From the IMG/VR virus record IMGVR_UViG_3300039008_000325, positions 49,372-113,371 of that record: DNA of 64,000 nucleotides; one strand, given 5' to 3'. A program made the translations under genes and the position numbers. The notes under the pieces were generated by a model. That model did not search any database. It was not told the DNA's origin and was given only the letters and a program-made list of their open reading frames with translations. Origin of the DNA: a virus. Taxonomy: Duplodnaviria > Heunggongvirae > Uroviricota > Caudoviricetes. Positions 159 through 55,312 of this stretch are shown in pieces (position 1 is the first letter of the stretch; each line of letters starts with the position of its first letter).

Positions 159-845
159 TTATTTAATTTCAAAATCGACTATATTATCATCATTTAGATG
201 TATTATTGCAAAATCTTCAATATTAATATCTTGTATATGAGCAAAATGTAAAATATCTTCAATTAATTTTGATTTGATATATGTATGTTTCTTTTCTTTC
301 TTAATAGTTCTTATGAATGAAAACATAATTACAGATGTAAAATAACCCATTGCTTCTTTATTATAATATGAAAAATTCCCGATATATTTTATACATTGAA
401 ATACAGCTTCTAACACCATCTCATCTTTAAATGTGTAACAATAATAAGATGGTAGTTTAGATATTTCTTTTGCCATTTTTAAGAAACAATTACCAATATA
501 ATCATTTGGATTTTTAACTTCAAAATAATCTAGAGTAACTAAATTCTTATTAATATCTTTATAAATTTCTTTATAGAATTTTTCTTGAAGCTTATATTCT
601 CTTTCCTTCTTTAAACCACGTTTTCTAGAAGAGTTTTGATTTCTACTTCTACTTGATATTTTATTTAGTTCTTCTTTTAAATATTTTAAATATAATTTAA
701 CGTTCTTCTTTTTTGTATCACCTAATTTCATATCAGTATTCTTTTTTAAATATTTACCTAAAAATCTTCTATGAAATAATTTATAAGCGTGTTCTTTATT
801 GTATTCACAGACTGCTTCTGCAAACTTCACTTTATCAATATACAC
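159..845 (-). CDS. late-transcription sigma factor, T4 gp55-like
   Basis: C-terminal block ...NFSYYNKEAMGYFTSVIMFSFIRTIKKEKK matches the T4 gp55 pattern [31 protein letters not shown]. Starts with GTG after an AAGAAGGGGA SD. Consistent with abundant TATAAATA late promoters in the window. Confidence 0.55.
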   Translation of the reverse strand: MYIDKVKFAEAVCEYNKEHAYKLFHRRFLGKYLKKNTDMKLGDTKKKNVKLYLKYLKEELNKISSRSRNQNSSRKRGLKKEREYKLQEKFYKEIYKDINKNLVTLDYFEVKNPNDYIGNCFLKMAKEISKLPSYYCYTFKDEMVLEAVFQCIKYIGNFSYYNKEAMGYFTSVIMFSFIRTIKKEKKHTYIKSKLIEDILHFAHIQDINIEDFAIIHLNDDNIVDFEIK

Positions 846-12590: not shown

Positions 12591-12610
12591 AATTATAAAT
12601 AATTATATAA
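12591..12610 (+). promoter_or_regulatory. late promoter cassette
   Basis: exact 20-nt consensus, 28 nt before ATG 12638. Confidence 0.65.
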
Positions 12611-14741: not shown

Positions 14742-14761
14742 AATTATAAATAACTATATAA
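14742..14761 (+). promoter_or_regulatory. late promoter cassette (1 mismatch)
   Basis: AATTATAAATAACTATATAA. Confidence 0.55.
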
Positions 14762-15082: not shown

Positions 15083-15159
15083 CGCGGGATAGAGCAGTCG
15101 GGTAGCTCAACAGGCTCATAACCTGTAGGTCGCTGGTTCAAATCCAGCTCCCGCAACCA
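15083..15159 (+). tRNA. tRNA-Met (CAU), initiator-like
   Basis: cloverleaf with anticodon loop CTCATAA and acceptor C1:A72 mismatch (bacterial initiator hallmark). Confidence 0.75.
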
Positions 15160-15214
15160 AAAGATAGTTGATTTCATTTTTAAAAGTTATATAATATAAT
15201 TATAGAGGAAATTA

Positions 15215-15267
15215 CTATTAACCTTTTATAAATAATTATACAGTAACTATTTATAAAAGGTTAATAG
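15215..15267 (+). promoter_or_regulatory. perfect 20-bp inverted repeat hairpin containing a late -10 box and sequestering the SD of the downstream HNH gene
   Basis: left arm CTATTAACCTTTTATAAATA (15215-15234), right arm TATTTATAAAAGGTTAATAG (15248-15267). TATAAATA at 15227-15234. AAGG SD lies in the right arm, ATG at 15268. Confidence 0.6.
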
Positions 15268-15942
15268 ATGAATTATAAAAGAATTTACAATGAAATCATA
15301 GAAAATAGAATAAATAATCCATTTAAAGGTTATACAGAAACACATCATATTTTACCTAGATCATTAGGTGGATCAGATGAAAAAGAAAATTTAGTTAAAT
15401 TGAGTGCTAGAGAACATTTCATATGTCACTTACTTTTAACTAAAATACATAAAGATGATACTATTGAACATTATAAGATGTTAAATGCATTTATTATGAT
15501 GAAAATGAATAGTAATACACAAGATAGATATTTTAATAGTTATTTATATGAAAAAATAAGAATAAAATACTCTAAAATGCAAAGTAAAAAACAATCTGGT
15601 AAAGGTAATAACCAGTATGGTAAAATGTGGATTACAAATGGAAAAGATAATAAATTAATTTATAGAGATAATTCAATACCGGTTGGTTGGAAAAAAGGTC
15701 GTAAATTAAAATCACCTAAAACAGATGCTCTAAATGAAAAATTTAGGAAAAGAAAACAAAAAACAGCATCTAAAAAATTACAAACAACTTTAATGTATGA
15801 AGAATATTATAAAATTTATTGTGAATATGGTTGGGAAAAATTTAAAGAAATAACCGATTATAAATTTTCTCAACAAAATTTAGTAATGCAGTTTAAACAT
15901 CGTGTTAAAGATTACACATCACAACGCGGTAGAAAAAGATAG
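15268..15942 (+). CDS. HNH homing endonuclease
   Basis: TETHHILPRSLGGSDEKENLVKLSAREHFICH His-Me finger; paralogue of 18388 (both begin MNYKR(I/L)YNEIIENR). Confidence 0.85.
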   Translation: MNYKRIYNEIIENRINNPFKGYTETHHILPRSLGGSDEKENLVKLSAREHFICHLLLTKIHKDDTIEHYKMLNAFIMMKMNSNTQDRYFNSYLYEKIRIKYSKMQSKKQSGKGNNQYGKMWITNGKDNKLIYRDNSIPVGWKKGRKLKSPKTDALNEKFRKRKQKTASKKLQTTLMYEEYYKIYCEYGWEKFKEITDYKFSQQNLVMQFKHRVKDYTSQRGRKR

Positions 15943-15943
15943 A

Positions 15944-16017
15944 GGGTTCATAATTCAATGGTAGAATAACCGACTTTTAATCGGTTTACCTAAGTTCGAT
16001 TCTTAGTGAACCCACCA
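15944..16017 (+). tRNA. tRNA-Lys (UUU)
   Basis: acceptor GGGTTCA/TGAACCC, anticodon stem ACCGA/TCGGT, loop CTTTTAA; starts 2 nt after the HNH stop. Confidence 0.75.
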
Positions 16018-16030
16018 AATATTTAATTGT

Positions 16031-16107
16031 ATACCTGTAGTTCAGATGGATAGAACAACAGATTTCTAATCTGTAGGTCATAGGTTCGAGTCCTATCAGG
16101 TATGCCA
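16031..16107 (+). tRNA. tRNA-Arg (UCU)
   Basis: acceptor ATACCTG/CAGGTAT, anticodon loop TTTCTAA, T-arm ATAGG-TTCGAGT-CCTAT. Confidence 0.8.
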
Positions 16108-16117
16108 GTTTTAAGAT

Positions 16118-16194
16118 GGTGTTTGTAGCTCAATTGGTAGAGTGTTTCCTTGTGATGGAAGATGTTGCGAGTTCGAGTCTCGTCAAACACCCCA
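16118..16194 (+). tRNA. tRNA-His (GUG)
   Basis: extra G-1, acceptor GTGTTTG/CAAACAC, discriminator C, loop TTGTGAT. Confidence 0.8.
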
Positions 16195-16205
16195 TTTTAA
16201 TTTGA

Positions 16206-16244
16206 GGACTTGTAGCTCAGGTGGTTAGAGCACTAGACTGATTT
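16206..16244 (+). pseudogene. 5' tRNA fragment (acceptor + D-arm + half anticodon arm, loop CTGATTT), truncated at promoter cassette
   Basis: GGACTTG-TA-GCTC-AGGTGGTTA-GAGC then breaks inside anticodon loop where AATTATAAATAATTATATAA begins. D-arm nearly identical to tRNA-Ile at 20688. Confidence 0.55.
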
Positions 16245-16247
16245 TAA

Positions 16248-16267
16248 AATTATAAATAATTATATAA
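16248..16267 (+). promoter_or_regulatory. late promoter cassette
   Basis: exact consensus; followed by AAGGAATATAATTATG leader shared with genes at 38941 and 53518. Confidence 0.65.
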
Positions 16268-16282
16268 TAAAGGAATATAATT

Positions 16283-16990
16283 ATGAATAATATAAAAATT
16301 GATGAATCTTGGAAACAAGAAAGTGGTAAATATAAATGCCCATATTGTGATAAGGAATATACTAAAAAAGGTATATGTACACATATATGGAGAAAACATA
16401 CAGAAGAAGGTTTAAATTTTACTAAATTACACGATCCAAATAAAGGTTTTAAAGATGGTACTAGAAAAGCTTGGAATAAAGGTTTAACTAAAGAAACTGA
16501 CACAAGGTTAGAAGAAAAAAGTATTAAGTTGCGAGAAAAATTTAATAGTGGTGAATTAGAGGGTTATTGGAAAAATAAAAAACATTCTAACTCTACAATA
16601 ATAAAGATGAAAAATAATAAAAATTGTGGAGGATATAGAAAAGGGTCAGGTAGAGGTAAATCTGGCTGGTATAAAAATTATTATTGTGATAGTAGTTGGG
16701 AATTAGCTTTTGTAATTTATAATTTAGAAAACAATATAAAATTTGAAAGAAATACTAAAAAATTTAGTTATATATTTAATAGAAAAAAACATGATTATAT
16801 GCCGGATTTTATTATCAATAACGAATATATAGAAATAAAAGGTTACATAACTGAACAATGGAAAGCTAAAAAAGAACAATTTCCACATAAGTTAAAAACA
16901 TTATATCAAAAAGATATACAAAAATATTTAGATTATGTGATTAATAAATATGGAAAAGATTTTATTAAATTATACGGCTCTCTAGCTTAG
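16283..16990 (+). CDS. putative homing endonuclease: N-terminal C2H2-like zinc finger, NUMOD3-like repeats, C-terminal PD-(D/E)xK-like domain
   Basis: CPYCDKEYTKKGICTHIWRKH; WNKGLTKETD and KHSNSTIIKM NUMOD3-like; C-terminal H.Y.PDF...IEIKG; last codons overlap tRNA-Phe. Confidence 0.5.
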   Translation: MNNIKIDESWKQESGKYKCPYCDKEYTKKGICTHIWRKHTEEGLNFTKLHDPNKGFKDGTRKAWNKGLTKETDTRLEEKSIKLREKFNSGELEGYWKNKKHSNSTIIKMKNNKNCGGYRKGSGRGKSGWYKNYYCDSSWELAFVIYNLENNIKFERNTKKFSYIFNRKKHDYMPDFIINNEYIEIKGYITEQWKAKKEQFPHKLKTLYQKDIQKYLDYVINKYGKDFIKLYGSLA

Positions 16991-17051
16991 TTGGTCTGAG
17001 CGCTCGATTGAAGCTCGAGAGGTTCTGGTTCGAATCCAGGGGGAGCCACCA
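16976..17051 (+). tRNA. tRNA-Phe (GAA)
   Basis: acceptor GGCTCTC/GGGAGCC, anticodon stem CTCGA/TCGAG, loop TTGAAGC. Confidence 0.75.
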
Positions 17052-17052
17052 A

Positions 17053-17355
17053 ATGAAAATAAAAAAATTAATACTAATATTATTCCTACTAATTAGTAAT
17101 ACGACATACGCAAGTAATTTCATATCAGATAAAGATAATAAAGTAGTAGGTGTTAAAACAGATACAATTAGGTTAGATAAAAGATTATTATATAGAGCAG
17201 AATACAACCATATGAAAGAACGTACACAAACGAGTGCTGCTTACGAGATTAATAAAAATAATTACATAATAATATACTTAATACATAGTAAAGAGAACAA
17301 TATGTTTGAAGAATTTGATGATACTATTAAGATTAGGTATAAATATAAATTTTAG
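17053..17355 (+). CDS. small secreted protein (signal peptide MKIKKLILILFLLISNTTYA)
   Basis: ORF-track call starts inside tRNA-Phe. The in-frame ATG at 17053 gives a canonical signal peptide and uses GGGGGAG of the tRNA 3' end as SD. Confidence 0.45.
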   Translation: MKIKKLILILFLLISNTTYASNFISDKDNKVVGVKTDTIRLDKRLLYRAEYNHMKERTQTSAAYEINKNNYIIIYLIHSKENNMFEEFDDTIKIRYKYKF

Positions 17356-17431
17356 GGGATGTAGCTCAGTTGATTAGAGCACTGCACTGTCACTGCAGAG
17401 GTCGCCGGTTTGAGCCCGGTCATTCCCGCCA
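17355..17431 (+). tRNA. tRNA-Asp (GUC)
   Basis: 77 nt, anticodon stem CTGCA/TGCAG, loop CTGTCAC. Confidence 0.8.
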
Positions 17432-17437
17432 GTTTAA

Positions 17438-17514
17438 GTAGGGGTAGTAGCAATTGGTTAAAACAGTTGACTCCAAATCTTCAGTTCTAGGTTCGAGTCC
17501 TAGCCCCTATGCCA
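17438..17514 (+). tRNA. tRNA-like gene with canonical acceptor and T-arm but non-canonical D/anticodon arms (identity unresolved)
   Basis: 77 nt; acceptor GTAGGGG/CCCCTAT, T-arm CTAGG-TTCGAGT-CCTAG, CCA encoded; no 5-bp anticodon stem could be drawn by hand. Confidence 0.4.
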
Positions 17515-17521
17515 AGATAAT

Positions 17522-17598
17522 GTATCTGTAGCTCAATTGGATAGAGCACTTGGCTACGAACTAAGAGGTTGTGGGTTCGAGTCCTACCAGGTATGCCA
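17522..17598 (+). tRNA. tRNA-Arg (ACG)
   Basis: anticodon stem CTTGG/CTAAG (2 GU), loop CTACGAA, T-arm GTGGG-TTCGAGT-CCTAC. Confidence 0.75.
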
Positions 17599-17630
17599 GT
17601 TAATATAAAACATTTGAAAAGGGAGATAAA

Positions 17631-17867
17631 ATGTTTTTTAAGAGTAGGAAAAGATTTAAAATAGGTACATATTACATTGATGAAAGAAGTAGATTAAGAA
17701 TACTTTGGTTAGATGAGATATGTGAGAAATCAATATTAAAGTTTAATTTTTGCAAATTTATGATGGATAATAAAATCATAACATCAAGTAGTGTAGTGTT
17801 ATTTGATAAGCAAACAAAATATACAGTAAAAGGTGATTGTATAGTAAATTATATACAATCAATATAA
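17631..17867 (+). CDS. hypothetical protein
   Basis: 78 aa, AAAGGGAGATAAAATG SD. Confidence 0.4.
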   Translation: MFFKSRKRFKIGTYYIDERSRLRILWLDEICEKSILKFNFCKFMMDNKIITSSSVVLFDKQTKYTVKGDCIVNYIQSI

Positions 17868-17872
17868 GTTGT

Positions 17873-17946
17873 TACCCCGTCGTCTAATGGTAAGACATGT
17901 GTTTTTGGTGCACATTATCGAGGTTCGAATCCTTGCGGGGTAACCA
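17873..17946 (+). tRNA. tRNA-Gln (UUG)
   Basis: acceptor TACCCCG/CGGGGTA, loop TTTTGGT. Confidence 0.75.
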
Positions 17947-17950
17947 ATTA

Positions 17951-18026
17951 GGGGCCTTAGCTCATCTGGGAGAGCGCTACATTTGCAATGTAGAGGTGGC
18001 GAGTTCGAGTCTCGCAGGCTCCACCA
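17951..18026 (+). tRNA. tRNA-Ala (UGC)
   Basis: acceptor GGGGCCT, anticodon stem CTACA/TGTAG, loop TTTGCAA. Confidence 0.8.
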
Positions 18027-18045
18027 AATTTGAAGGAGAGATAAT

Positions 18046-18291
18046 ATGGTACATCAAGCTCAATTAGTACCAAATATTAATAAAAAAGTTATTAAATTAT
18101 ATAGTCCAGATGGTGATGATGTAAATACAGTATTCTTAAGTTCAATACATGATGTAGTTGAACAACATTTAAAACATGTAGGTGATTTTTATTATGTTAA
18201 TTTTAAAAATAAAACACAAACAGAAGTAAATAAAGAATCATATGATTTAGTTAAAGAGTTATTATTTAAAGATTGTGAATACGTAAATTAA
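18046..18291 (+). CDS. hypothetical protein
   Basis: 81 aa, GAAGGAGAGATAATATG SD. Confidence 0.4.
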   Translation: MVHQAQLVPNINKKVIKLYSPDGDDVNTVFLSSIHDVVEQHLKHVGDFYYVNFKNKTQTEVNKESYDLVKELLFKDCEYVN

Positions 18292-18347
18292 GCAGGTGTA
18301 GTATAATGGCTATTATTACAGTCTTCCAAACTGAGGATAGGAGTTCG
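18292..18347 (+). pseudogene. 5' tRNA fragment (acceptor to mid T-loop, anticodon region CTTCCAAAC), truncated at promoter cassette
   Basis: GCAGGTG-TA-... AGGAGTTCG then CTAAAATTATAAATAATTATATAA; no matching 3' acceptor strand downstream. Confidence 0.45.
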
Positions 18348-18351
18348 CTAA

Positions 18352-18371
18352 AATTATAAATAATTATATAA
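18352..18371 (+). promoter_or_regulatory. late promoter cassette
   Basis: exact consensus 17 nt before ATG 18388. Confidence 0.65.
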
Positions 18372-18387
18372 TAGGAGTTATATAATT

Positions 18388-18957
18388 ATGAACTATAAAA
18401 GACTTTACAATGAAATAATAGAAAATAGAAAACAAAACCCAATTAAAGGCTATACTGAAAAACATCATATTATACCAAGAAGCCTAAATGGAACTGATGA
18501 GAAAGAAAACTTAGTTAATCTAACAGCTAGAGAACATTTCATTTGCCATTATTTACTAACTAAAATGTATGATAAAAGAACAAACAATCATTATAAATTA
18601 GTTTGTGCATTTAATATGATGAATATGAGTGGAGAATATCACACAAGGTATTTTAACAGTTATTTATATGAAGCAAATAAAATACAATTTTCTAAATTAC
18701 AAAGTAAAAACCAAAAAGGTCAAAAAAATTCTCAATTTGGTAAAATGTGGATTACTAATGGAAAAGATAATAAAAAAATTCGAAAAGATGAAATTATTCC
18801 TGAAGGTTTTAGAAAGGGTAGGGTCATACCTAAAGAAATAAAAGAAAAAATAAGAAAATCTATGAAAGGTGTTGGTGTTGGTCGTGTTCGAAGTGATAAA
18901 ACAAAAGCAAAAATAAGTCGAACATTGAAATTGAGACACAGATCAATAAATTTATAG
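18388..18957 (+). CDS. HNH homing endonuclease
   Basis: TEKHHIIPRSLNGTDEKENLVNLTAREHFICH; stop overlaps first nt of tRNA-Ser. Confidence 0.85.
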   Translation: MNYKRLYNEIIENRKQNPIKGYTEKHHIIPRSLNGTDEKENLVNLTAREHFICHYLLTKMYDKRTNNHYKLVCAFNMMNMSGEYHTRYFNSYLYEANKIQFSKLQSKNQKGQKNSQFGKMWITNGKDNKKIRKDEIIPEGFRKGRVIPKEIKEKIRKSMKGVGVGRVRSDKTKAKISRTLKLRHRSINL

Positions 18958-19044
18958 GAGCGATGTCTGAGTGGTTTAAGGTGCTTCCCTGCTAAGGAAG
19001 TGTAGTGAAAGCTACCGCAGGTTCGAATCCTGCTCGTTCCGCCA
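18957..19044 (+). tRNA. tRNA-Ser (GCU)
   Basis: type II tRNA, long variable arm, anticodon stem CTTCC/GGAAG, loop CTGCTAA. Confidence 0.75.
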
Positions 19045-19046
19045 TT

Positions 19047-19120
19047 GAGCTATTGTCCGAGTAGTTAGGTGATAGTCTGCAAAACTATTTACATTGGTGC
19101 AAATCCAATATAGCTCTCCA
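19047..19120 (+). tRNA. tRNA-Cys (GCA)
   Basis: acceptor GAGCTAT/ATAGCTC, stem ATAGT/ACTAT, loop CTGCAAA. Confidence 0.75.
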
Positions 19121-19137
19121 TAATTTAATACAGTTTA

Positions 19138-19225
19138 GCTGGGGTGGTGGAATTGGTATACACGCTAGTCTTAGGAACTAGTTTTCAGAAATGATTTATG
19201 GGTTCGAATCCCATCTCCAGCACCA
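19138..19225 (+). tRNA. tRNA-Leu (UAG)
   Basis: type II, anticodon stem CTAGT/ACTAG, loop CTTAGGA. Confidence 0.75.
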
Positions 19226-19277
19226 TAAACTATTGTTGAATTATGATAAAATTACATTTAAAATGTTAATACATTTA

Positions 19278-19362
19278 GGAAGAGAGGCGAGTGGTTAGCA
19301 AGTGCACTTGAAATGCATCAGAGGTCAAACTCCTGCAGGTTCGAATCCTGTCTCTTCCGCCA
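19278..19362 (+). tRNA. tRNA-Ser (UGA)
   Basis: type II, GGAAGAG... loop CTTGAAA, T-arm CAGG-TTCGAAT-CCTG. Confidence 0.75.
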
Positions 19363-19382
19363 TTATTTTAAGGAGAGTTAAA

Positions 19383-19757
19383 ATGAAAAAAAGATTAGGT
19401 TTCGTAAGTAATAGTTCAAGTAGTTCATTTGTAGTTTGGGGTATTCAATTAGATACTTGTGAAGATAAACTAAAAGAAAAATGTACTGAACAATTGTTCA
19501 AAAGATTATATGATGAACAAGAAGAATATATAAAAGAAGATTTAGTTGAAGAATTATATGATTGGACTGAAGATGATGGATTAGTTGCTAATGATGATGA
19601 ATCAGGCTATATCCAAATAGGTTTATATGCTGAAAAAATGAAAGATGATGAGACATTAAAACAATATAAAGAAAAAGTTCTTCAAAAATTAATAGAAAAA
19701 GGTATAAAAGCTAAATATGAAGATATCCATTGGATAGAAGAAGTTTCATATTGCTAA
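19383..19757 (+). CDS. small acidic protein, MKKRLGFVSNSSSSSF family member 1
   Basis: AAGGAGAGTTAAAATG SD immediately after tRNA-Ser. ORF-track N-terminal extension would overlap the tRNA. C-terminus rich in D/E. Confidence 0.6.
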   Translation: MKKRLGFVSNSSSSSFVVWGIQLDTCEDKLKEKCTEQLFKRLYDEQEEYIKEDLVEELYDWTEDDGLVANDDESGYIQIGLYAEKMKDDETLKQYKEKVLQKLIEKGIKAKYEDIHWIEEVSYC

Positions 19758-19759
19758 CA

Positions 19760-19836
19760 GGGGCATTAGCTCAGCTGGTTAGAGCGGTACGCTCATAACG
19801 TATAGGTCCCTGGTTCGAATCCAGGATGCCCCACCA
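19760..19836 (+). tRNA. tRNA with CAU anticodon (elongator Met or Ile2-lysidine type)
   Basis: acceptor GGGGCAT, loop CTCATAA. Confidence 0.7.
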
Positions 19837-19842
19837 AGTTAT

Positions 19843-19919
19843 GGTACTTTAGCTCAGTTGGTTAGAGCATTCGCTTCATACGTGAAAGGTCGTTGGTTCG
19901 AATCCAACAAGTACCACCA
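19843..19919 (+). tRNA. tRNA with CAU anticodon (second copy, Met/Ile2)
   Basis: acceptor GGTACTT/AAGTACC, loop TTCATAC. Confidence 0.7.
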
Positions 19920-19938
19920 TTTTAAAAGGAGAGTTAAA

Positions 19939-20364
19939 ATGAAAAAAAGATTAGGTTTTGTGAGCAATAGTAGCTCAAGTAGCTTTATTATAGGTATTGC
20001 TAAAGTTAAAGATAGAAAAAAATTAGAAGAAAAATATTCTGACATACTTAGTTGTTTAGATATTAGAACTATTCAATCTTTCGTTGATGAAAAATGGGGT
20101 GGTCTTTATGAACAAAGTGATAGATATATGCATGAATCATTTGACGGTACTGAAGTAACTATATCTAAAGATAATATTAATAAAGATGATCTTGTATTAG
20201 TGGTTGATGATTATGAAGATATTTACCCTGAAGATGATGATTGGGATATAGATTATGATAAAGATTATTATCATCCATATGAAGATAGAATTGATGAATT
20301 ATTATCAGATGATGAAGTAGTTGAACACGGTGAATTTGCTAAAGGTGCTGGTTACAACGGATAG
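19939..20364 (+). CDS. small acidic protein, MKKRLGFVSNSSSSSF family member 2
   Basis: identical SD-ATG context AAGGAGAGTTAAAATG; N-terminal 16 aa identical to member 1; C-terminus DDYEDIYPEDDDWDIDYDKDYYHPYEDRIDELLSDDE. Confidence 0.6.
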   Translation: MKKRLGFVSNSSSSSFIIGIAKVKDRKKLEEKYSDILSCLDIRTIQSFVDEKWGGLYEQSDRYMHESFDGTEVTISKDNINKDDLVLVVDDYEDIYPEDDDWDIDYDKDYYHPYEDRIDELLSDDEVVEHGEFAKGAGYNG

Positions 20365-20374
20365 GAGAGAAGTT

Positions 20375-20680
20375 ATGAAAAAAAGAAACGGTTTTGTAAG
20401 TAATAGTTCAAGTAGTAGTTTTATTTTATTTTTAGATAAAAATGAAAAGACTAAAAATAAACCACAATTCGATGGAGCACATCATTATATCTGGGAAAAA
20501 GATGATGATGGTAACTTTGAATGTGATAGTCAATACTATGTAGATATTAGAAATAAAATATCTAAAGCAAAAGAAGATAATAAACTTGTAATTGAATTTG
20601 AAACAGAAATGAATTCAGATTATGAAACAAGAGAATTATTAGACTTATTAGGTGTTGAATACATCTCATTAGATAATTAA
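20375..20680 (+). CDS. small acidic protein, MKKRLGFVSNSSSSSF family member 3
   Basis: MKKRNGFVSNSSSSSF, GGAGAGAAGTTATG SD, 4 nt after member 2 stop region. Confidence 0.55.
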   Translation: MKKRNGFVSNSSSSSFILFLDKNEKTKNKPQFDGAHHYIWEKDDDGNFECDSQYYVDIRNKISKAKEDNKLVIEFETEMNSDYETRELLDLLGVEYISLDN

Positions 20681-20687
20681 AGTTAAA

Positions 20688-20763
20688 GTCTATTAGCTCA
20701 GTTGGTTAGAGCGTACGTCTGATACACGTGAGGTCCCAAGTTCGAATCTTGGATAGACTACCA
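20688..20763 (+). tRNA. tRNA-Ile (GAU)
   Basis: acceptor GTCTATT/GGATAGAC, loop CTGATAC. Confidence 0.75.
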
Positions 20764-20770
20764 AAAATAT

Positions 20771-20857
20771 GCGTCGGTGGCTGAGCGGTCAAAGGCACCG
20801 GACTGTAAATCCGGCGGGATTATCCCTACCTAGGTTCGAATCCTAGCTGGCGCACCA
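20771..20857 (+). tRNA. tRNA-Tyr (GUA)
   Basis: type II, anticodon stem CCGGA/TCCGG, loop CTGTAAA. Confidence 0.75.
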
Positions 20858-45405: not shown

Positions 45406-46149
45406 TTAACCTTCATATCTATTACCTTTAATGAGATTTTCTTCAGCCCATAAAGGTTGTAAATTATTTAATGACCAGCACTCTTTTAGTTCTTCTTCAT
45501 TCTCACAACTAAACCAACTTTTAGGTTTAATATGATCAATATGCCAATCTCCATAATTGTTCCAAGACATACCAGGTCGAAATTGTTTTTCTAAATGTTG
45601 TTTTAAATCATCTATTGTATATCCAAACAATTTGAGATATTTAGATGTGGTTTTTGTTTTATTAATCGTTCGATTAAGTGTGGTTGAGATAATATGATTT
45701 AATTTATAATTAATATTTTCATTATATCTTTTATTTTGATATATCTTATTATAATTTTTTAATTTTTCCTTATTTTTCAATTTATATTGCTTTTGATATT
45801 CTCGAATCTTATTTCTTTTTAATTCTTTATATTCTTTAGAGTTTAATAGTTTCTGTTTTTCTAACTTTGCTAATAACTTTACTTCATCTTTAGCTTGTTG
45901 TTTTATAATTTTAAGTTGTTGTTTTTGATTTCTCGCTACTTCAGTTTTTAATAGGTATTTTTGCTGATATTTATTACGATTCTTTAAATAGTAATTTTTA
46001 GCTCGCTCTTTGTTATTTGTGTAGTAATTACTCTCACACAATTTACAACTATACTGATAACCATCTCCACTCGTTTTATTTTTATGAAACTCGTTTATAT
46101 TTTTTACTTCTTTACATTTAGTACATTTTTTATAAATAATTATAGACAT
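45406..46149 (-). CDS. HNH endonuclease with N-terminal zinc finger
   Basis: CTKC...CKLC N-terminus; GDWHIDHIKPKS...NLQPLWAEENLIKGN His-Me finger; paralogue of 54731 (both begin MSIIIYKK). Confidence 0.8.
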   Translation of the reverse strand: MSIIIYKKCTKCKEVKNINEFHKNKTSGDGYQYSCKLCESNYYTNNKERAKNYYLKNRNKYQQKYLLKTEVARNQKQQLKIIKQQAKDEVKLLAKLEKQKLLNSKEYKELKRNKIREYQKQYKLKNKEKLKNYNKIYQNKRYNENINYKLNHIISTTLNRTINKTKTTSKYLKLFGYTIDDLKQHLEKQFRPGMSWNNYGDWHIDHIKPKSWFSCENEEELKECWSLNNLQPLWAEENLIKGNRYEG

Positions 46150-46216
46150 TGATTAACTCCTTACGTTAATTTTTGTTTAGAATGGTATAAGTGTTGGTGC
46201 ATTTATACCTTTCGCT

Positions 46217-46236
46217 TTATATAATTATTTATAATT
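46217..46236 (-). promoter_or_regulatory. late promoter cassette on minus strand (drives HNH gene 45406-46149)
   Basis: TTATATAATTATTTATAATT is exact reverse complement of the consensus. Confidence 0.6.
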
Positions 46237-46247
46237 TCCAAGAACAT

Positions 46248-46267
46248 AATTATAAATAATTATATAA
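46248..46267 (+). promoter_or_regulatory. late promoter cassette (drives terminase gene); divergent with 46217-46236
   Basis: exact consensus 10 nt before TAAGGAG SD. Confidence 0.65.
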
Positions 46268-54643: not shown

Positions 54644-54663
54644 AATTATAAATAATTATATAA
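54644..54663 (+). promoter_or_regulatory. late promoter cassette followed by hairpin 54670-54697
   Basis: exact consensus; downstream AGATATAAATG-CGCTAA-CATTTATATCT stem-loop then AAGAAGGA SD. Confidence 0.6.
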
Positions 54664-54730
54664 AGCGAAAGATATAAATGCGCTAACATTTATATCTCTC
54701 TAACATCAATTAATAAGAAGGATTAATCGA

Positions 54731-55312
54731 ATGTCTATAATTATTTATAAAAAAGTGTGTACTAAATGCTCACTCGAAAAGAATATTAATGAATTTTATA
54801 AGGATAGTAGTAAATATGATGGCTATGCTTGTGCTTGTAAAGAATGTTGTATTAAACATCGTAATAAATACCGTAAAGAAAATAAATCTAAAATTAAAGA
54901 ATATTATCAAAATTATTACAAATCTAATAACTATAGTAAAGAATATTATAGGTTAAATAAAGATAAAATCAAGCAATATTATAAACATAAATATCACAAT
55001 AATATCAATAAGAGATTACATCATATTATTTCCGTAACATTAAATAATATGATAAACAAGAAATATGACACATCCAAATATTTAAAATTATTTGGATATA
55101 CGATAGAAGAGTTAAAGACTCATTTAGAAAAGAAATTTAAAGAGAATATGTCATGGGACAATTATGGAGAATGGCATATTGACCACATTAAACCTAAGAG
55201 TTGGTTTAGTGTTGACAGTGAACAAGAATTAAAAAAGTGTTGGAGTTTAGATAACTTACAACCTCTATGGGCTGATGAAAATTGGTCAAAAGGAAATAGA
55301 TATAAAGGATAA
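54731..55312 (+). CDS. HNH endonuclease with N-terminal zinc finger
   Basis: CTKCSLEK...CACKECC; GEWHIDHIKPKS...NLQPLWADENWSKGN. Confidence 0.8.
   Translation: MSIIIYKKVCTKCSLEKNINEFYKDSSKYDGYACACKECCIKHRNKYRKENKSKIKEYYQNYYKSNNYSKEYYRLNKDKIKQYYKHKYHNNINKRLHHIISVTLNNMINKKYDTSKYLKLFGYTIEELKTHLEKKFKENMSWDNYGEWHIDHIKPKSWFSVDSEQELKKCWSLDNLQPLWADENWSKGNRYKG

What the first reader, a model, noticed from the sequence alone, without database searches (positions are those of the whole stretch)
15215..15270. Late promoter embedded in a perfect hairpin that sequesters the ribosome-binding site of an HNH gene
A perfect 20-bp inverted repeat (CTATTAACCTTTTATAAATA / TATTTATAAAAGGTTAATAG, 13-nt loop) ends exactly at the ATG of the HNH gene at 15268. 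The 3' arm contains the only plausible SD (AAGG). The 5' arm ends with the T4-type late -10 box TATAAATA (15227-15234). A read-through transcript would fold and block translation. A late transcript starting about 6 nt downstream of the box would begin in the loop, lack the 5' arm, and be translatable. This is the mechanism described for T4 I-TevI/I-TevII late translational activation.
Basis: partly seen in the sequence, partly recalled or inferred. Interest (0 to 1): 0.7.

Follow-up and report, generated by a model that had tools for sequence, protein, structure and literature searches.

The report
Late-promoter hairpin gating a homing nuclease
A selfish nuclease gene in an uncultured T4-like phage is preceded by an RNA hairpin that hides its ribosome-binding site, with a late promoter inside the hairpin so that only late transcripts should be translated; this control is already known from phage T4, and here one hairpin arm appears to derive from a tRNA anticodon loop.

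Summary
A perfect 20-bp inverted repeat (15215-15234 / 15248-15267, 13-nt loop) ends at the ATG (15268) of a 224-aa Mob-type HNH gene. It folds at -22.7 kcal/mol (z -6.7). None of 200 simulated windows contained a perfect stem of 20 bp or more.

The window comes from a distant T4-like myovirus that encodes a gp55-like late sigma factor (159-845, minus strand). The box at 15227 is an exact copy of a 14-mer, TATAAATAATTATA. This 14-mer occurs 19 times (0.09 expected), before late structural genes and before all seven nuclease-like ORFs. The predicted start (15240) lies in the loop. Opening the ribosome-binding site costs 16.9 kcal/mol in read-through RNA, the highest of 62 ORFs, against 3.7 in the late RNA.

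Fifteen homologous cassettes keep the same stem with compensatory changes and a late box inside it. The mechanism is documented for T4 e, soc, 49, I-TevI/II/III, segB and Aeh1 mobE, so this is a new member of a known kind.

One result was unexpected. In relatives the arm core is the exact anticodon loop of the tRNA gene that follows the nuclease gene (13 of 36 adjacent tRNAs, 0 of 248 others). No transcript 5' end or translation effect has been measured.

The parts
15215..15234 (+). 5' arm of the hairpin (anti-SD strand). Its core ACTATTAACC is homologous to the tRNA-Asn anticodon-loop copy ACTGTTAAYY found in relatives.
15227..15240 (+). Late-type promoter: TATAAATA (15227-15234) extended to the phage's 14-mer TATAAATAATTATA.
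   Evidence: There are 19 exact copies against 0.09 expected, placed before late genes.
15240..15240 (+). Predicted late transcription start (+1), inside the hairpin loop. Inferred from the T4 spacing, not measured.
   Evidence: PMC1524935: box at -13 to -6
15235..15247 (+). Hairpin loop (13 nt; four extra internal pairs are predicted).
15248..15267 (+). 3' arm of the hairpin. It contains the Shine-Dalgarno AAAGG (15256-15260) and ends at the base before the ATG.
   Evidence: (AAGGA-type SD is the norm in this phage)
15268..15942 (+). Free-standing Mob-type HNH homing-endonuclease gene (224 aa).
   Evidence: phrog_655, E 3e-44; T-even mobB-type hits
15083..15159 (+). tRNA-Met upstream, co-oriented. 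Read-through from here or further upstream would carry the full hairpin.
   Evidence: no terminator-like site between 14707 and 15215
15944..16017 (+). tRNA-Lys(UUU), starting 2 nt after the HNH stop codon. The same tight ORF-tRNA junction is seen in relatives and in T4 segB.
15168..15195 (+). Sigma-70-like TTGATT-16-TATAAT, a candidate source of hairpin-containing transcripts. Not above chance in this AT-rich DNA.
   Evidence: 16 sites found against 14.1 expected
159..845 (-). gp55-like late sigma factor gene, the factor expected to read the TATAAATA promoters.
   Evidence: phrog_234, E 7.8e-24; T4-like neighbours

Best explanation
The hairpin acts as a temporal translational gate on a free-standing HNH homing-endonuclease gene inserted in the phage's tRNA array.

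Transcripts that start upstream (tRNA precursors, the 14745 late promoter, possibly a sigma-70-type promoter at 15168-15195) contain both arms. The 20-bp helix (24 bp with the inner pairs) buries the Shine-Dalgarno AAAGG and abuts the AUG, so ribosomes cannot load.

RNA polymerase carrying the phage's gp55-like late sigma factor recognises TATAAATA(ATTATA) at 15227-15240 and starts at about 15240, in the loop. That RNA has only the 3' arm, an essentially unstructured 28-nt leader, and is translatable. The nuclease would therefore be made only late.

What is shown: the structure, its statistical significance, the motif's identity with the phage's late-gene promoters, the presence of gp55, the energy difference between the two RNAs, and covariation in homologues. 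What is inferred: the position of +1, the existence of read-through RNA, and the effect on translation.

The 5' arm probably began as the anticodon-loop end of a tRNA gene fragment at the cassette's insertion junction. It was kept because it pairs with the cassette's own leader.
For: Structure: -22.7 kcal/mol, z -6.7. The long RNA 15160-15300 folds at -32.3 (z -6.1); the short RNA from 15240 folds at -3.0 (z +0.4). Opening -15..+4 costs 16.9 kcal/mol in the long RNA and 3.7 in the short. This is the highest of 25 promoter-gene pairs and of 62 ORFs of 100 aa or more (median 4.1).

Promoter: the exact 14-mer occurs 19 times against 0.09 expected. It sits 27-45 nt before the ATG of tail tube, sheath, baseplate, prohead protease, scaffold/capsid operon and terminase genes, and of the nuclease ORFs. 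It is absent from the early-type block at 25.8-36.8 kb.

Late machinery: gp55 homologue, E 7.8e-24. T4 box position -13..-6.

Comparative: 15 homologous cassettes (about 45-50% protein identity) keep the stem. 87% of cells are paired, against 22-54% in slid registers. The covariation score is 0.278 against 0.172 when shuffled (0 of 500 shuffles as high). The window carries G-C to A-U at one pair. Two pairs show UA/CG/UG with at most one unpaired cell. There are 12 sense-strand G.U pairs against 4 A.C. Arm separation varies by tens of nt.

A late box (TATAAATA, or the Aeh1-type CTAAATA) lies inside the hairpin in nearly all of them. The motif pair occurs in about 0.9 Mb of loci almost only at HNH start codons.

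Across the family, ribosome-binding sites are more occluded than in 188 control ORFs: 33% against 14% need 10 kcal/mol or more (p 0.0012).

Precedents with experiments: PMC2988022, PMC3014915, PMC2330249.
Against: There are no transcript or translation data for this uncultured phage. The positions flanking the 14-mer differ from the consensus: TTT instead of AAT upstream, CAG instead of TAA downstream. Upstream sigma-70-like promoters are not above chance, so early read-through is assumed rather than shown. Late read-through from 14745 would also be silent. A cruder test based on pairing in the minimum-energy fold discriminates poorly in this AT-rich DNA: 29 of 42 nuclease genes meet it, against 6 of 17 controls, and many window late genes pass. 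The covariation set is small and phylogenetically related, and I anchored the alignment on the conserved cores.
Confidence: 0.75

Rival explanations
1. The hairpin is a constitutive silencer. It keeps a potentially toxic nuclease untranslated at all times, and the embedded TATAAATA is not used as a promoter. This was first proposed for T4 segB, where no nearby promoter had been mapped.
For: The segB hairpin (-20.2 kcal) was described with no mapped promoter nearby (PMC2330249). The flanks of the window's 14-mer deviate from the consensus.
Against: The match is exact to a 14-mer that marks late genes 19 times against 0.09 expected. A late box is kept inside the hairpin in nearly all 15 clade members, although the intervening sequence is otherwise unrelated.
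Confidence: 0.1
2. The inverted repeat works mainly at the DNA level. The two arms are binding sites (operators or homing-site mimics) for the nuclease itself, which represses its own late promoter, as I-TevI does. The RNA hairpin is a by-product or a second layer.
For: In relatives the arm core is the exact anticodon loop of the adjacent tRNA gene, a plausible homing target: 13 of 36 adjacent tRNAs against 0 of 248 others. The seven core positions are invariant or nearly so, while the proteins are only about 45-50% identical. The I-TevI operator overlaps its late promoter and resembles its homing site (PMC2988022).
Against: The window and L177 carry CTATTAA in both arms, a compensatory change away from the tRNA loop, although L177's own tRNA-Asn keeps CTGTTAA. 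G.U pairs are tolerated on the sense strand three times as often as A.C. In the Thr-linked group the 3' arm is the coding sequence of codons 2-4. The target of this nuclease is unknown.
Confidence: 0.1
3. The hairpin is an RNA processing or termination signal for the tRNA array, for example an RNase III site separating the tRNA-Met precursor from downstream RNA, or an intrinsic terminator.
For: A 20-24-bp perfect duplex is long enough for RNase III. It lies between tRNA genes.
Against: There is no U tract after the stem, and the terminator scan does not call it. The stem has only 2 G-C pairs in 20. The position is fixed relative to the start codon, not to the tRNA, in all relatives. No Rfam family matches. 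Cleavage could coexist with the main model.
Confidence: 0.04
4. The repeat is a chance palindrome in 26% G+C DNA.
For: AT-rich sequence gives many weak inverted repeats.
Against: None of 200 simulated windows reached 20 bp, the fold z-score is -6.7, and homologues show covariation.
Confidence: 0.01

Closest known systems
Aeromonas phage Aeh1 mobE (free-standing HNH homing endonuclease; Gibb & Edgell 2007 and 2009, cited via PMC2988022 and PMC3014915)
   Same: A free-standing Mob-type HNH gene in a T4-like phage. [quoted passage not shown]
   Different: mobE is embedded in a ribonucleotide reductase gene; this gene sits in a tRNA array. The sequences are unrelated at the hairpin. Here the hairpin arm is related to a tRNA anticodon loop. 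The original papers were not held in the library, so details rest on the reviews.
T4 segB (GIY-YIG homing endonuclease in the T4 tRNA gene cluster; PMC2330249)
   Same: A nuclease gene inside a phage tRNA cluster. A stable hairpin (-20.2 kcal) lies over the SD and start codon. The stop codon abuts the next tRNA, so tRNA processing cuts at the ORF end. The enzyme targets tRNA genes (T-loop motif).
   Different: The nuclease family differs (GIY-YIG against HNH). No promoter was mapped next to segB in that paper, whereas here a consensus late promoter lies inside the hairpin.
[quoted passage not shown]
   Same: A late (or middle) promoter lies within or just upstream of the 5' strand of a helix that occludes the ribosome-binding site. 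Long early transcripts are silent and short late ones are translated.
   Different: Those genes are intron-encoded or ordinary late genes. I-TevI additionally autorepresses through an operator that overlaps the promoter; that is untested here.

Membership tests
T4-type late-promoter / RBS-sequestering-hairpin translational control | A stable RNA helix includes the Shine-Dalgarno sequence and/or the start codon. | tested here: met
   A 20-bp perfect stem covers AAAGG and ends at the AUG. Fold -22.7 kcal/mol, z -6.7. Opening cost 16.9 kcal/mol.
T4-type late-promoter / RBS-sequestering-hairpin translational control | A late promoter (TATAAATA at -13..-6) is placed so that the late transcript lacks the 5' strand of the helix. 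| tested here: met
   The box is at 15227-15234, so +1 is predicted at 15240, in the loop. The motif is identical to 18 other copies placed before late genes. The start site is inferred, not mapped.
T4-type late-promoter / RBS-sequestering-hairpin translational control | The phage has the gp55-type late transcription machinery. | tested here: met
   ORF 159-845 (minus strand) matches phrog_234 'late sigma transcription factor', E 7.8e-24. T4-like gene order. gp33 and gp45 were not looked for.
T4-type late-promoter / RBS-sequestering-hairpin translational control | The gene lies on longer transcripts from upstream promoters that include the 5' strand. | tested here: inconclusive
   Co-oriented tRNA-Met and a late promoter at 14745 lie upstream, with no terminator-like site after 14707. 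Sigma-70-like sites are not above chance.
T4-type late-promoter / RBS-sequestering-hairpin translational control | Long RNA is translationally silent and short RNA is active (experimental). | not testable with these tools
   Needs 5' end mapping and reporter or toeprint assays.
Mob-type free-standing HNH homing endonuclease | HNH catalytic motif and family-level homology. | tested here: met
   phrog_655 'homing endonuclease', E 3e-44. Invariant H26 H27 N41 H50 H54 in 37 homologues. tblastn hits to T-even mobB-type genes. Pfam HNH scores 20.6 bits, just under the 21.4 cut-off.
Mob-type free-standing HNH homing endonuclease | Free-standing insertion between conserved genes. | tested here: met
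   The gene lies between tRNA-Met and tRNA-Lys, 2 nt from the latter. Two sister cassettes in the same array are preceded by truncated tRNA genes.
Mob-type free-standing HNH homing endonuclease | Site-specific cleavage and preferential inheritance (homing). | not testable with these tools
   No close relative lacking the gene was found. The target is unknown.
Intrinsic terminator | G+C-rich stem followed by a U tract. | tested here: not met
   Not called by the scan. The stem has 2 G-C pairs in 20 and is followed by AUGAAUUAUAAAAG.
I-TevI-type autorepressor operator | A sequence overlapping the promoter resembles the enzyme's homing site and is bound by the enzyme. | not testable with these tools
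   The homing site is unknown. In relatives the arms equal the adjacent tRNA's anticodon loop, which is suggestive only. The window's arms have drifted from it.

The most novel reading that the evidence does not exclude
The hairpin may be one instance of an undescribed design shared by a large family of tRNA-associated HNH cassettes in T4-like phages.

In this design the cassette (late promoter, leader, nuclease ORF) sits immediately 5' of a tRNA gene. It is preceded by a copy of that tRNA's 7-nt anticodon loop. In fresh cases the copy is the end of a truncated tRNA 5' half, broken about 2 nt after the loop. The cassette's own translation-initiation region is the exact complement of that loop. 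The element would therefore build its translational gate out of its conserved insertion target.

The loop copies might also act as operator or decoy sites for the nuclease. The window's element would be a drifted Asn-type member (CTGTTAA changed to CTATTAA in both arms) that now sits next to tRNA-Lys.
Probability: 0.35. Interest if true: 0.6.

Novelty: new member of a known kind. Interest (0 to 1): 0.4.

Why it matters
In itself this is a clean new example of a well-documented T4 strategy for restricting a selfish nuclease to late infection. It shows that the strategy, the TATAAATA late promoter and gp55 are kept in a very distant, 26% G+C, uncultured T4-like lineage.

The comparative work adds two things. 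First, independent lineages of the same nuclease family reach the same occluding hairpin with different stem sequences. This is evolutionary evidence that occlusion itself is selected.

Second, the arms are tied to the anticodon loop of the neighbouring tRNA gene. That points to tRNA genes as the homing targets of this family. It also suggests that a mobile element can use its conserved target sequence as part of its own regulation. I found no description of this link in the literature searches.

Two cultured phages, Rhizobium phage LG08 and Vibrio phage VB_VaC_SRILMA, carry the arrangement, so it can be tested experimentally.

Tried and rejected
No close relatives of the phage were found:
- Megablast of 12-20 kb against cultured phages hit only tRNA fragments.
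- An exact-pattern scan for the hairpin in IMG/VR gave nothing.
- A sheath-protein search in IMG/VR gave nothing.
As a result, no empty-site comparison was possible.

The pattern TTAAYAGTATGAAYTAYAA in IMG/VR returned five loci. None was confirmed as an HNH cassette, and three near-identical ones looked like chance matches inside another ORF. This was a dead end.

The sigma-70 promoter scan gave 16 sites against 14.1 expected, so the TTGATT-16-TATAAT at 15168 cannot be claimed as an early promoter.

The criterion 'at least 8 of 17 RBS nucleotides paired with pre-TSS partners in the minimum-energy fold' discriminated poorly (29 of 42 nuclease genes against 6 of 17 controls, and many window late genes pass). 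I rely on opening energies instead.

My first count of structure pairs on the 15-sequence alignment used the wrong register. It gave 22.6% pairing and serves only as an accidental negative control. One search is the correct run.

The original mobE papers (PMC2655525, PMC1913452) are not held.

No pseudo-tRNA was detectable at 15160-15226. Similarity of the window arm to the adjacent tRNA-Lys loop (CTTTTAA) is only at one-mismatch level and is not claimed.

The hairpin is not a pair of divergent promoters, unlike the palindrome at 46217. The minus-strand copy has only the 8-mer, and there is no minus-strand gene to serve.

Full report
**1. Observation**

The sequence is as described. The arms are at 15215-15234 and 15248-15267 (20 bp, perfect), the loop is 13 nt, and the ATG is at 15268. 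TATAAATA is at 15227-15234 and AAAGG at 15256-15260.

As RNA, 15195-15290 folds at -22.7 kcal/mol, against -8.1 +/- 2.2 for shuffles (z -6.7, 0 of 200 as good). In 200 Markov simulations of the window, no perfect hairpin reached 20 bp and the longest was 16 bp. The real window has two of 20 bp. The other one (46217-46267) is simply two divergent copies of the promoter consensus placed back to back.

**2. Context**

The window has 23-32% G+C and comes from a 141-kb metagenomic contig, JGI 3300045488 Ga0495723_43156. It encodes:
- a T4-type portal, sheath, tube, baseplate wedge proteins, prohead protease, scaffold, gp23-like capsid protein and terminase;
- Dda- and UvsW-like helicases, NrdD/NrdG, a DNA ligase and RtcB.

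The capsid protein is about 40% identical to those of T4-like cyanophages. No close relative exists in the phage or IMG/VR collections.

ORF 159-845 (minus strand) is a gp55-type late sigma factor (phrog_234, E 7.8e-24). Its neighbours are UvsY- and gp46/47-like genes.

Eighteen tRNA genes lie at 15083-20857. The ORF at 15268 is a Mob-type HNH homing endonuclease (phrog_655, E 3e-44) with hits to T-even mobB-type genes and invariant catalytic residues. It lies between tRNA-Met and tRNA-Lys, and tRNA-Lys starts 2 nt after the stop codon.

**3. The promoter**

TATAAATA alone is only modestly enriched: 45 copies against 31 expected, 33 of them on the plus strand. The real motif is longer, with consensus aAAT-TATAAATA-ATTATATAA.

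The exact 14-mer TATAAATAATTATA occurs 19 times against 0.09 expected. It lies 27-45 nt before the start codons of:
- tail tube (8847, 11962), sheath (12638), baseplate (24527), prohead protease (39686), the scaffold/capsid operon (41238) and terminase (46278);
- portal (4746), with one mismatch;
- all seven nuclease-like ORFs (15268, 16283, 18388, 37676, 53518, 54731, and 46149 on the minus strand).

It is absent from the early-type block at 25.8-36.8 kb. Together with gp55, this identifies it as the phage's late promoter.

In T4 the box occupies -13 to -6 (PMC1524935). That puts +1 at 15240, in the hairpin loop. The window copy matches the 14-mer exactly but differs in the flanks (TTT...CAG instead of AAT...TAA).

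**4. Consequence for the RNA**

The long RNA (15160-15300) folds at -32.3 kcal/mol (z -6.1) and contains the hairpin. RNA starting at 15240 folds at -3.0 (z +0.4).

Making -15..+4 single-stranded costs 16.9 kcal/mol in the long RNA and 3.7 in the short. This is the largest value among 25 promoter-gene pairs and among 62 window ORFs of 100 aa or more (median 4.1).

The other nuclease genes show the same logic with weaker, all-A-U stems. In those, the promoter's downstream half pairs with the SD-AUG spacer.

**5. Comparative evidence**

Homologues are about 50% identical at best. I collected 133 distinct upstream regions from viral and metagenomic contigs.

Many show a hairpin whose 3' arm ends at the start codon, with a late box (TATAAATA, or the Aeh1-type CTAAATA) in the 5' arm or loop. 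The stems have unrelated sequences in different clades. Examples are L018 CTCTTAAGT/ACTTAAGAG, L048 ACTTTGATTCC/GGAATCAAAGT, L078 TAGGTACAC/GTGTACCTA and L083 CTGTAGTATAATAG/CTATTATACTACAG.

As a family, their ribosome-binding sites are more occluded than those of 188 control ORFs from the same loci (33% against 14% need 10 kcal/mol or more; p 0.0012).

The window belongs to a clade of 15 sequences with arms CTRTTAAYY / RRTTAAYAG. Results for this clade:
- 87% of cells are paired, against 22-54% in slid registers.
- The covariation score is 0.278, against 0.172 when shuffled (0 of 500 shuffles as high).
- The window and L177 carry a compensatory G-C to A-U change.
- Two pairs show UA/CG/UG with at most one unpaired cell.
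- Sense-strand G.U pairs outnumber A.C pairs 12 to 4.
- The distance between the arms varies by tens of nt.

This fits an RNA helix better than a fixed-geometry DNA operator. In about 0.9 Mb of loci the motif pair occurs almost only at HNH start codons.

Caveats: the set is small and its members are related, and I anchored the arms on their conserved cores.

**6. Comparison with known systems**

[quoted passage not shown] Experimental proof exists for e, I-TevI and mobE.

T4 segB (PMC2330249) is the closest in context. It is a nuclease gene inside the tRNA cluster. It has a -20.2 kcal hairpin over its SD and AUG. Its stop codon sits at the processing site of the next tRNA, and the enzyme recognises tRNA genes.

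No Rfam family covers the hairpin, and it is not terminator-like. It remains untested experimentally.

**7. An unexpected layer: the tRNA anticodon loop**

In the window's clade, the nuclease gene is followed within about 20 nt by tRNA-Asn(GUU) in 8 of 14 loci. The conserved arm core, ACTGTTAAT, is that tRNA's anticodon loop with its closing pair.

This generalises. Thirty-six nuclease genes have a same-strand tRNA starting within -30..+60 nt of their stop codon. Of these, 13 carry both:
- the exact 7-nt anticodon loop of that tRNA upstream, and
- its exact reverse complement at the translation-initiation region.

None of the 248 other tRNAs in the same loci does (Fisher p 2.4e-13). The 13 cases cover five tRNA identities: Asn, Thr, Lys-CUU, Ser-UGA and CUA. 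In the Thr group the complement is codons 2-4 (GATTACAAA, from MDYK).

Some loci keep more of the tRNA upstream:
- L119 keeps a whole tRNA-Asn 5' half, broken 2 nt after the loop.
- Vibrio phage VB_VaC_SRILMA keeps a tRNA-Thr 5' half, broken at the same place and fused to TATAAATA.
- L005 and L014 keep the anticodon arm.

Rhizobium phage LG08, which is cultured, has the Asn-type hairpin (-32.6 kcal/mol, z -6.5) and an overlapping tRNA-Asn.

In the window itself, the two sister cassettes are preceded by truncated tRNA genes:
- 18292-18348: tRNA model positions 1-56, E 3e-4, cut in the T loop.
- 16206-16250: positions 1-45, E 0.13, which is weak.

My reading, which is inference, runs as follows. 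These cassettes insert in or next to tRNA genes. The displaced tRNA fragment decays except for the loop-proximal end, which serves as the 5' arm. The cassette leader is selected to pair with that end.

The window's arms (ACTATTAACCTT; 11 of 12 identical to L129) are a drifted Asn-type version. There is no tRNA-Asn among the window's 18 tRNAs, and no pseudo-tRNA is detectable at 15160-15226.

An alternative is that the loop copies are operator or decoy sites for the nuclease, as for I-TevI. That cannot be tested here.

I found no description of this tRNA-loop link in the literature searches.

**8. Verdict**

- Observation: confirmed.
- Interpretation: supported (confidence 0.75 that it works as proposed).
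- Novelty: new member of a known kind.
- Interest: moderate-low for the hairpin itself. The anticodon-loop connection raises it somewhat and is worth separate follow-up.

Noticed in passing
relatives L005, L009, L010, L014, L018, L056, L095, L099, L100, L110, L117, L119, L131; cultured phages L180 (PP083314.1) and L182 (PP429226.1): The hairpin arms, or the start of the coding region, of tRNA-adjacent HNH genes carry the exact 7-nt anticodon loop of the tRNA gene that follows the nuclease gene, together with its reverse complement. This holds for 13 of 36 adjacent tRNAs and 0 of 248 other tRNAs in the same loci (Fisher p 2.4e-13), across five tRNA identities. Some loci keep a whole truncated tRNA 5' half, broken about 2 nt after the loop.
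   Followed up: partly
window 18292-18348 and 16206-16250: Truncated tRNA genes lie immediately 5' of the late promoters of the two other nuclease cassettes in the tRNA array. The first is Gly-UCC-like and cut in the T loop (Rfam tRNA positions 1-56, 26.3 bits, E 3e-4). The second is a weaker 5' fragment cut in the anticodon loop (positions 1-45, E 0.13).
   Followed up: partly
window 15940-15944, 18957, 16976-16990: Nuclease ORFs end at or inside the next tRNA gene. The HNH stop is at 15942 and tRNA-Lys starts at 15944. The second HNH stop at 18957 is also the first base of tRNA-Ser. ORF 16283-16990 overlaps tRNA-Phe by 15 nt. As proposed for T4 segB, tRNA processing would cut these mRNAs at or before their stop codons.
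   Followed up: no
window 46131-46233 and 54647-54749: Two inverted copies of a module of about 100 bp are each bounded by convergent late-type promoters. One promoter gives an 84-nt structured leader to an endonuclease-VII-like gene (45406-46149 on the minus strand; 54731-55312 on the plus strand). The opposing promoter sits at the gene start and would make an antisense RNA to that leader.
   Followed up: no
window, 19 sites (e.g. 8803, 11919, 12594, 24485, 39647, 46251): The late promoter of this phage is a motif of about 20 nt (aAAT-TATAAATA-ATTATATAA), much longer than T4's 8-mer. Tandem doubled boxes occur at 12594/12606 and 39647/39659. The downstream half is complementary to the common SD-AUG spacer ATATAATTATG.
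   Followed up: partly
relatives, e.g. L023, L024, L027, L028, L031, L040, L043, L116, L128: In 44 of 133 homologues the late box lies 12-14 nt before the ATG (39 at exactly 13), and several of those inspected show no obvious Shine-Dalgarno sequence. With T4 spacing the late transcript would start at the A of the ATG, giving a leaderless mRNA. In several, a sigma-70-like promoter and a terminator lie just upstream.
   Followed up: no
relatives L005, L009, L100, L110, L119, L177, L179: The tRNA-Asn genes next to these nuclease genes are often 85-91 nt long with a long variable arm, which is unusual for tRNA-Asn. The extra arm begins just 3' of the anticodon stem, next to the apparent insertion junction.
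   Followed up: no
window 46217-46267: This is the only other perfect 20-bp palindrome in the window. It consists of back-to-back divergent late promoters serving terminase (plus strand) and an endonuclease-VII-like gene (minus strand). In read-through RNA it would also occlude the terminase ribosome-binding site (opening cost 10.5-11.9 kcal/mol).
   Followed up: partly
window 15248-15255 (minus strand): The palindrome creates a mirror TATAAATA on the minus strand, pointing at tRNA-Met. It lacks the ATTATA extension and has no gene to serve, so it is probably a by-product.
   Followed up: no
L001 and L002 (IMG/VR): Two homologous HNH genes directly follow ORFs whose ends look intein/Hint-like, resembling the 'fractured gene' arrangement of PMC2677866. 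L001 also has TATAAATA in the loop of a 10-bp hairpin that covers its SD.
   Followed up: no
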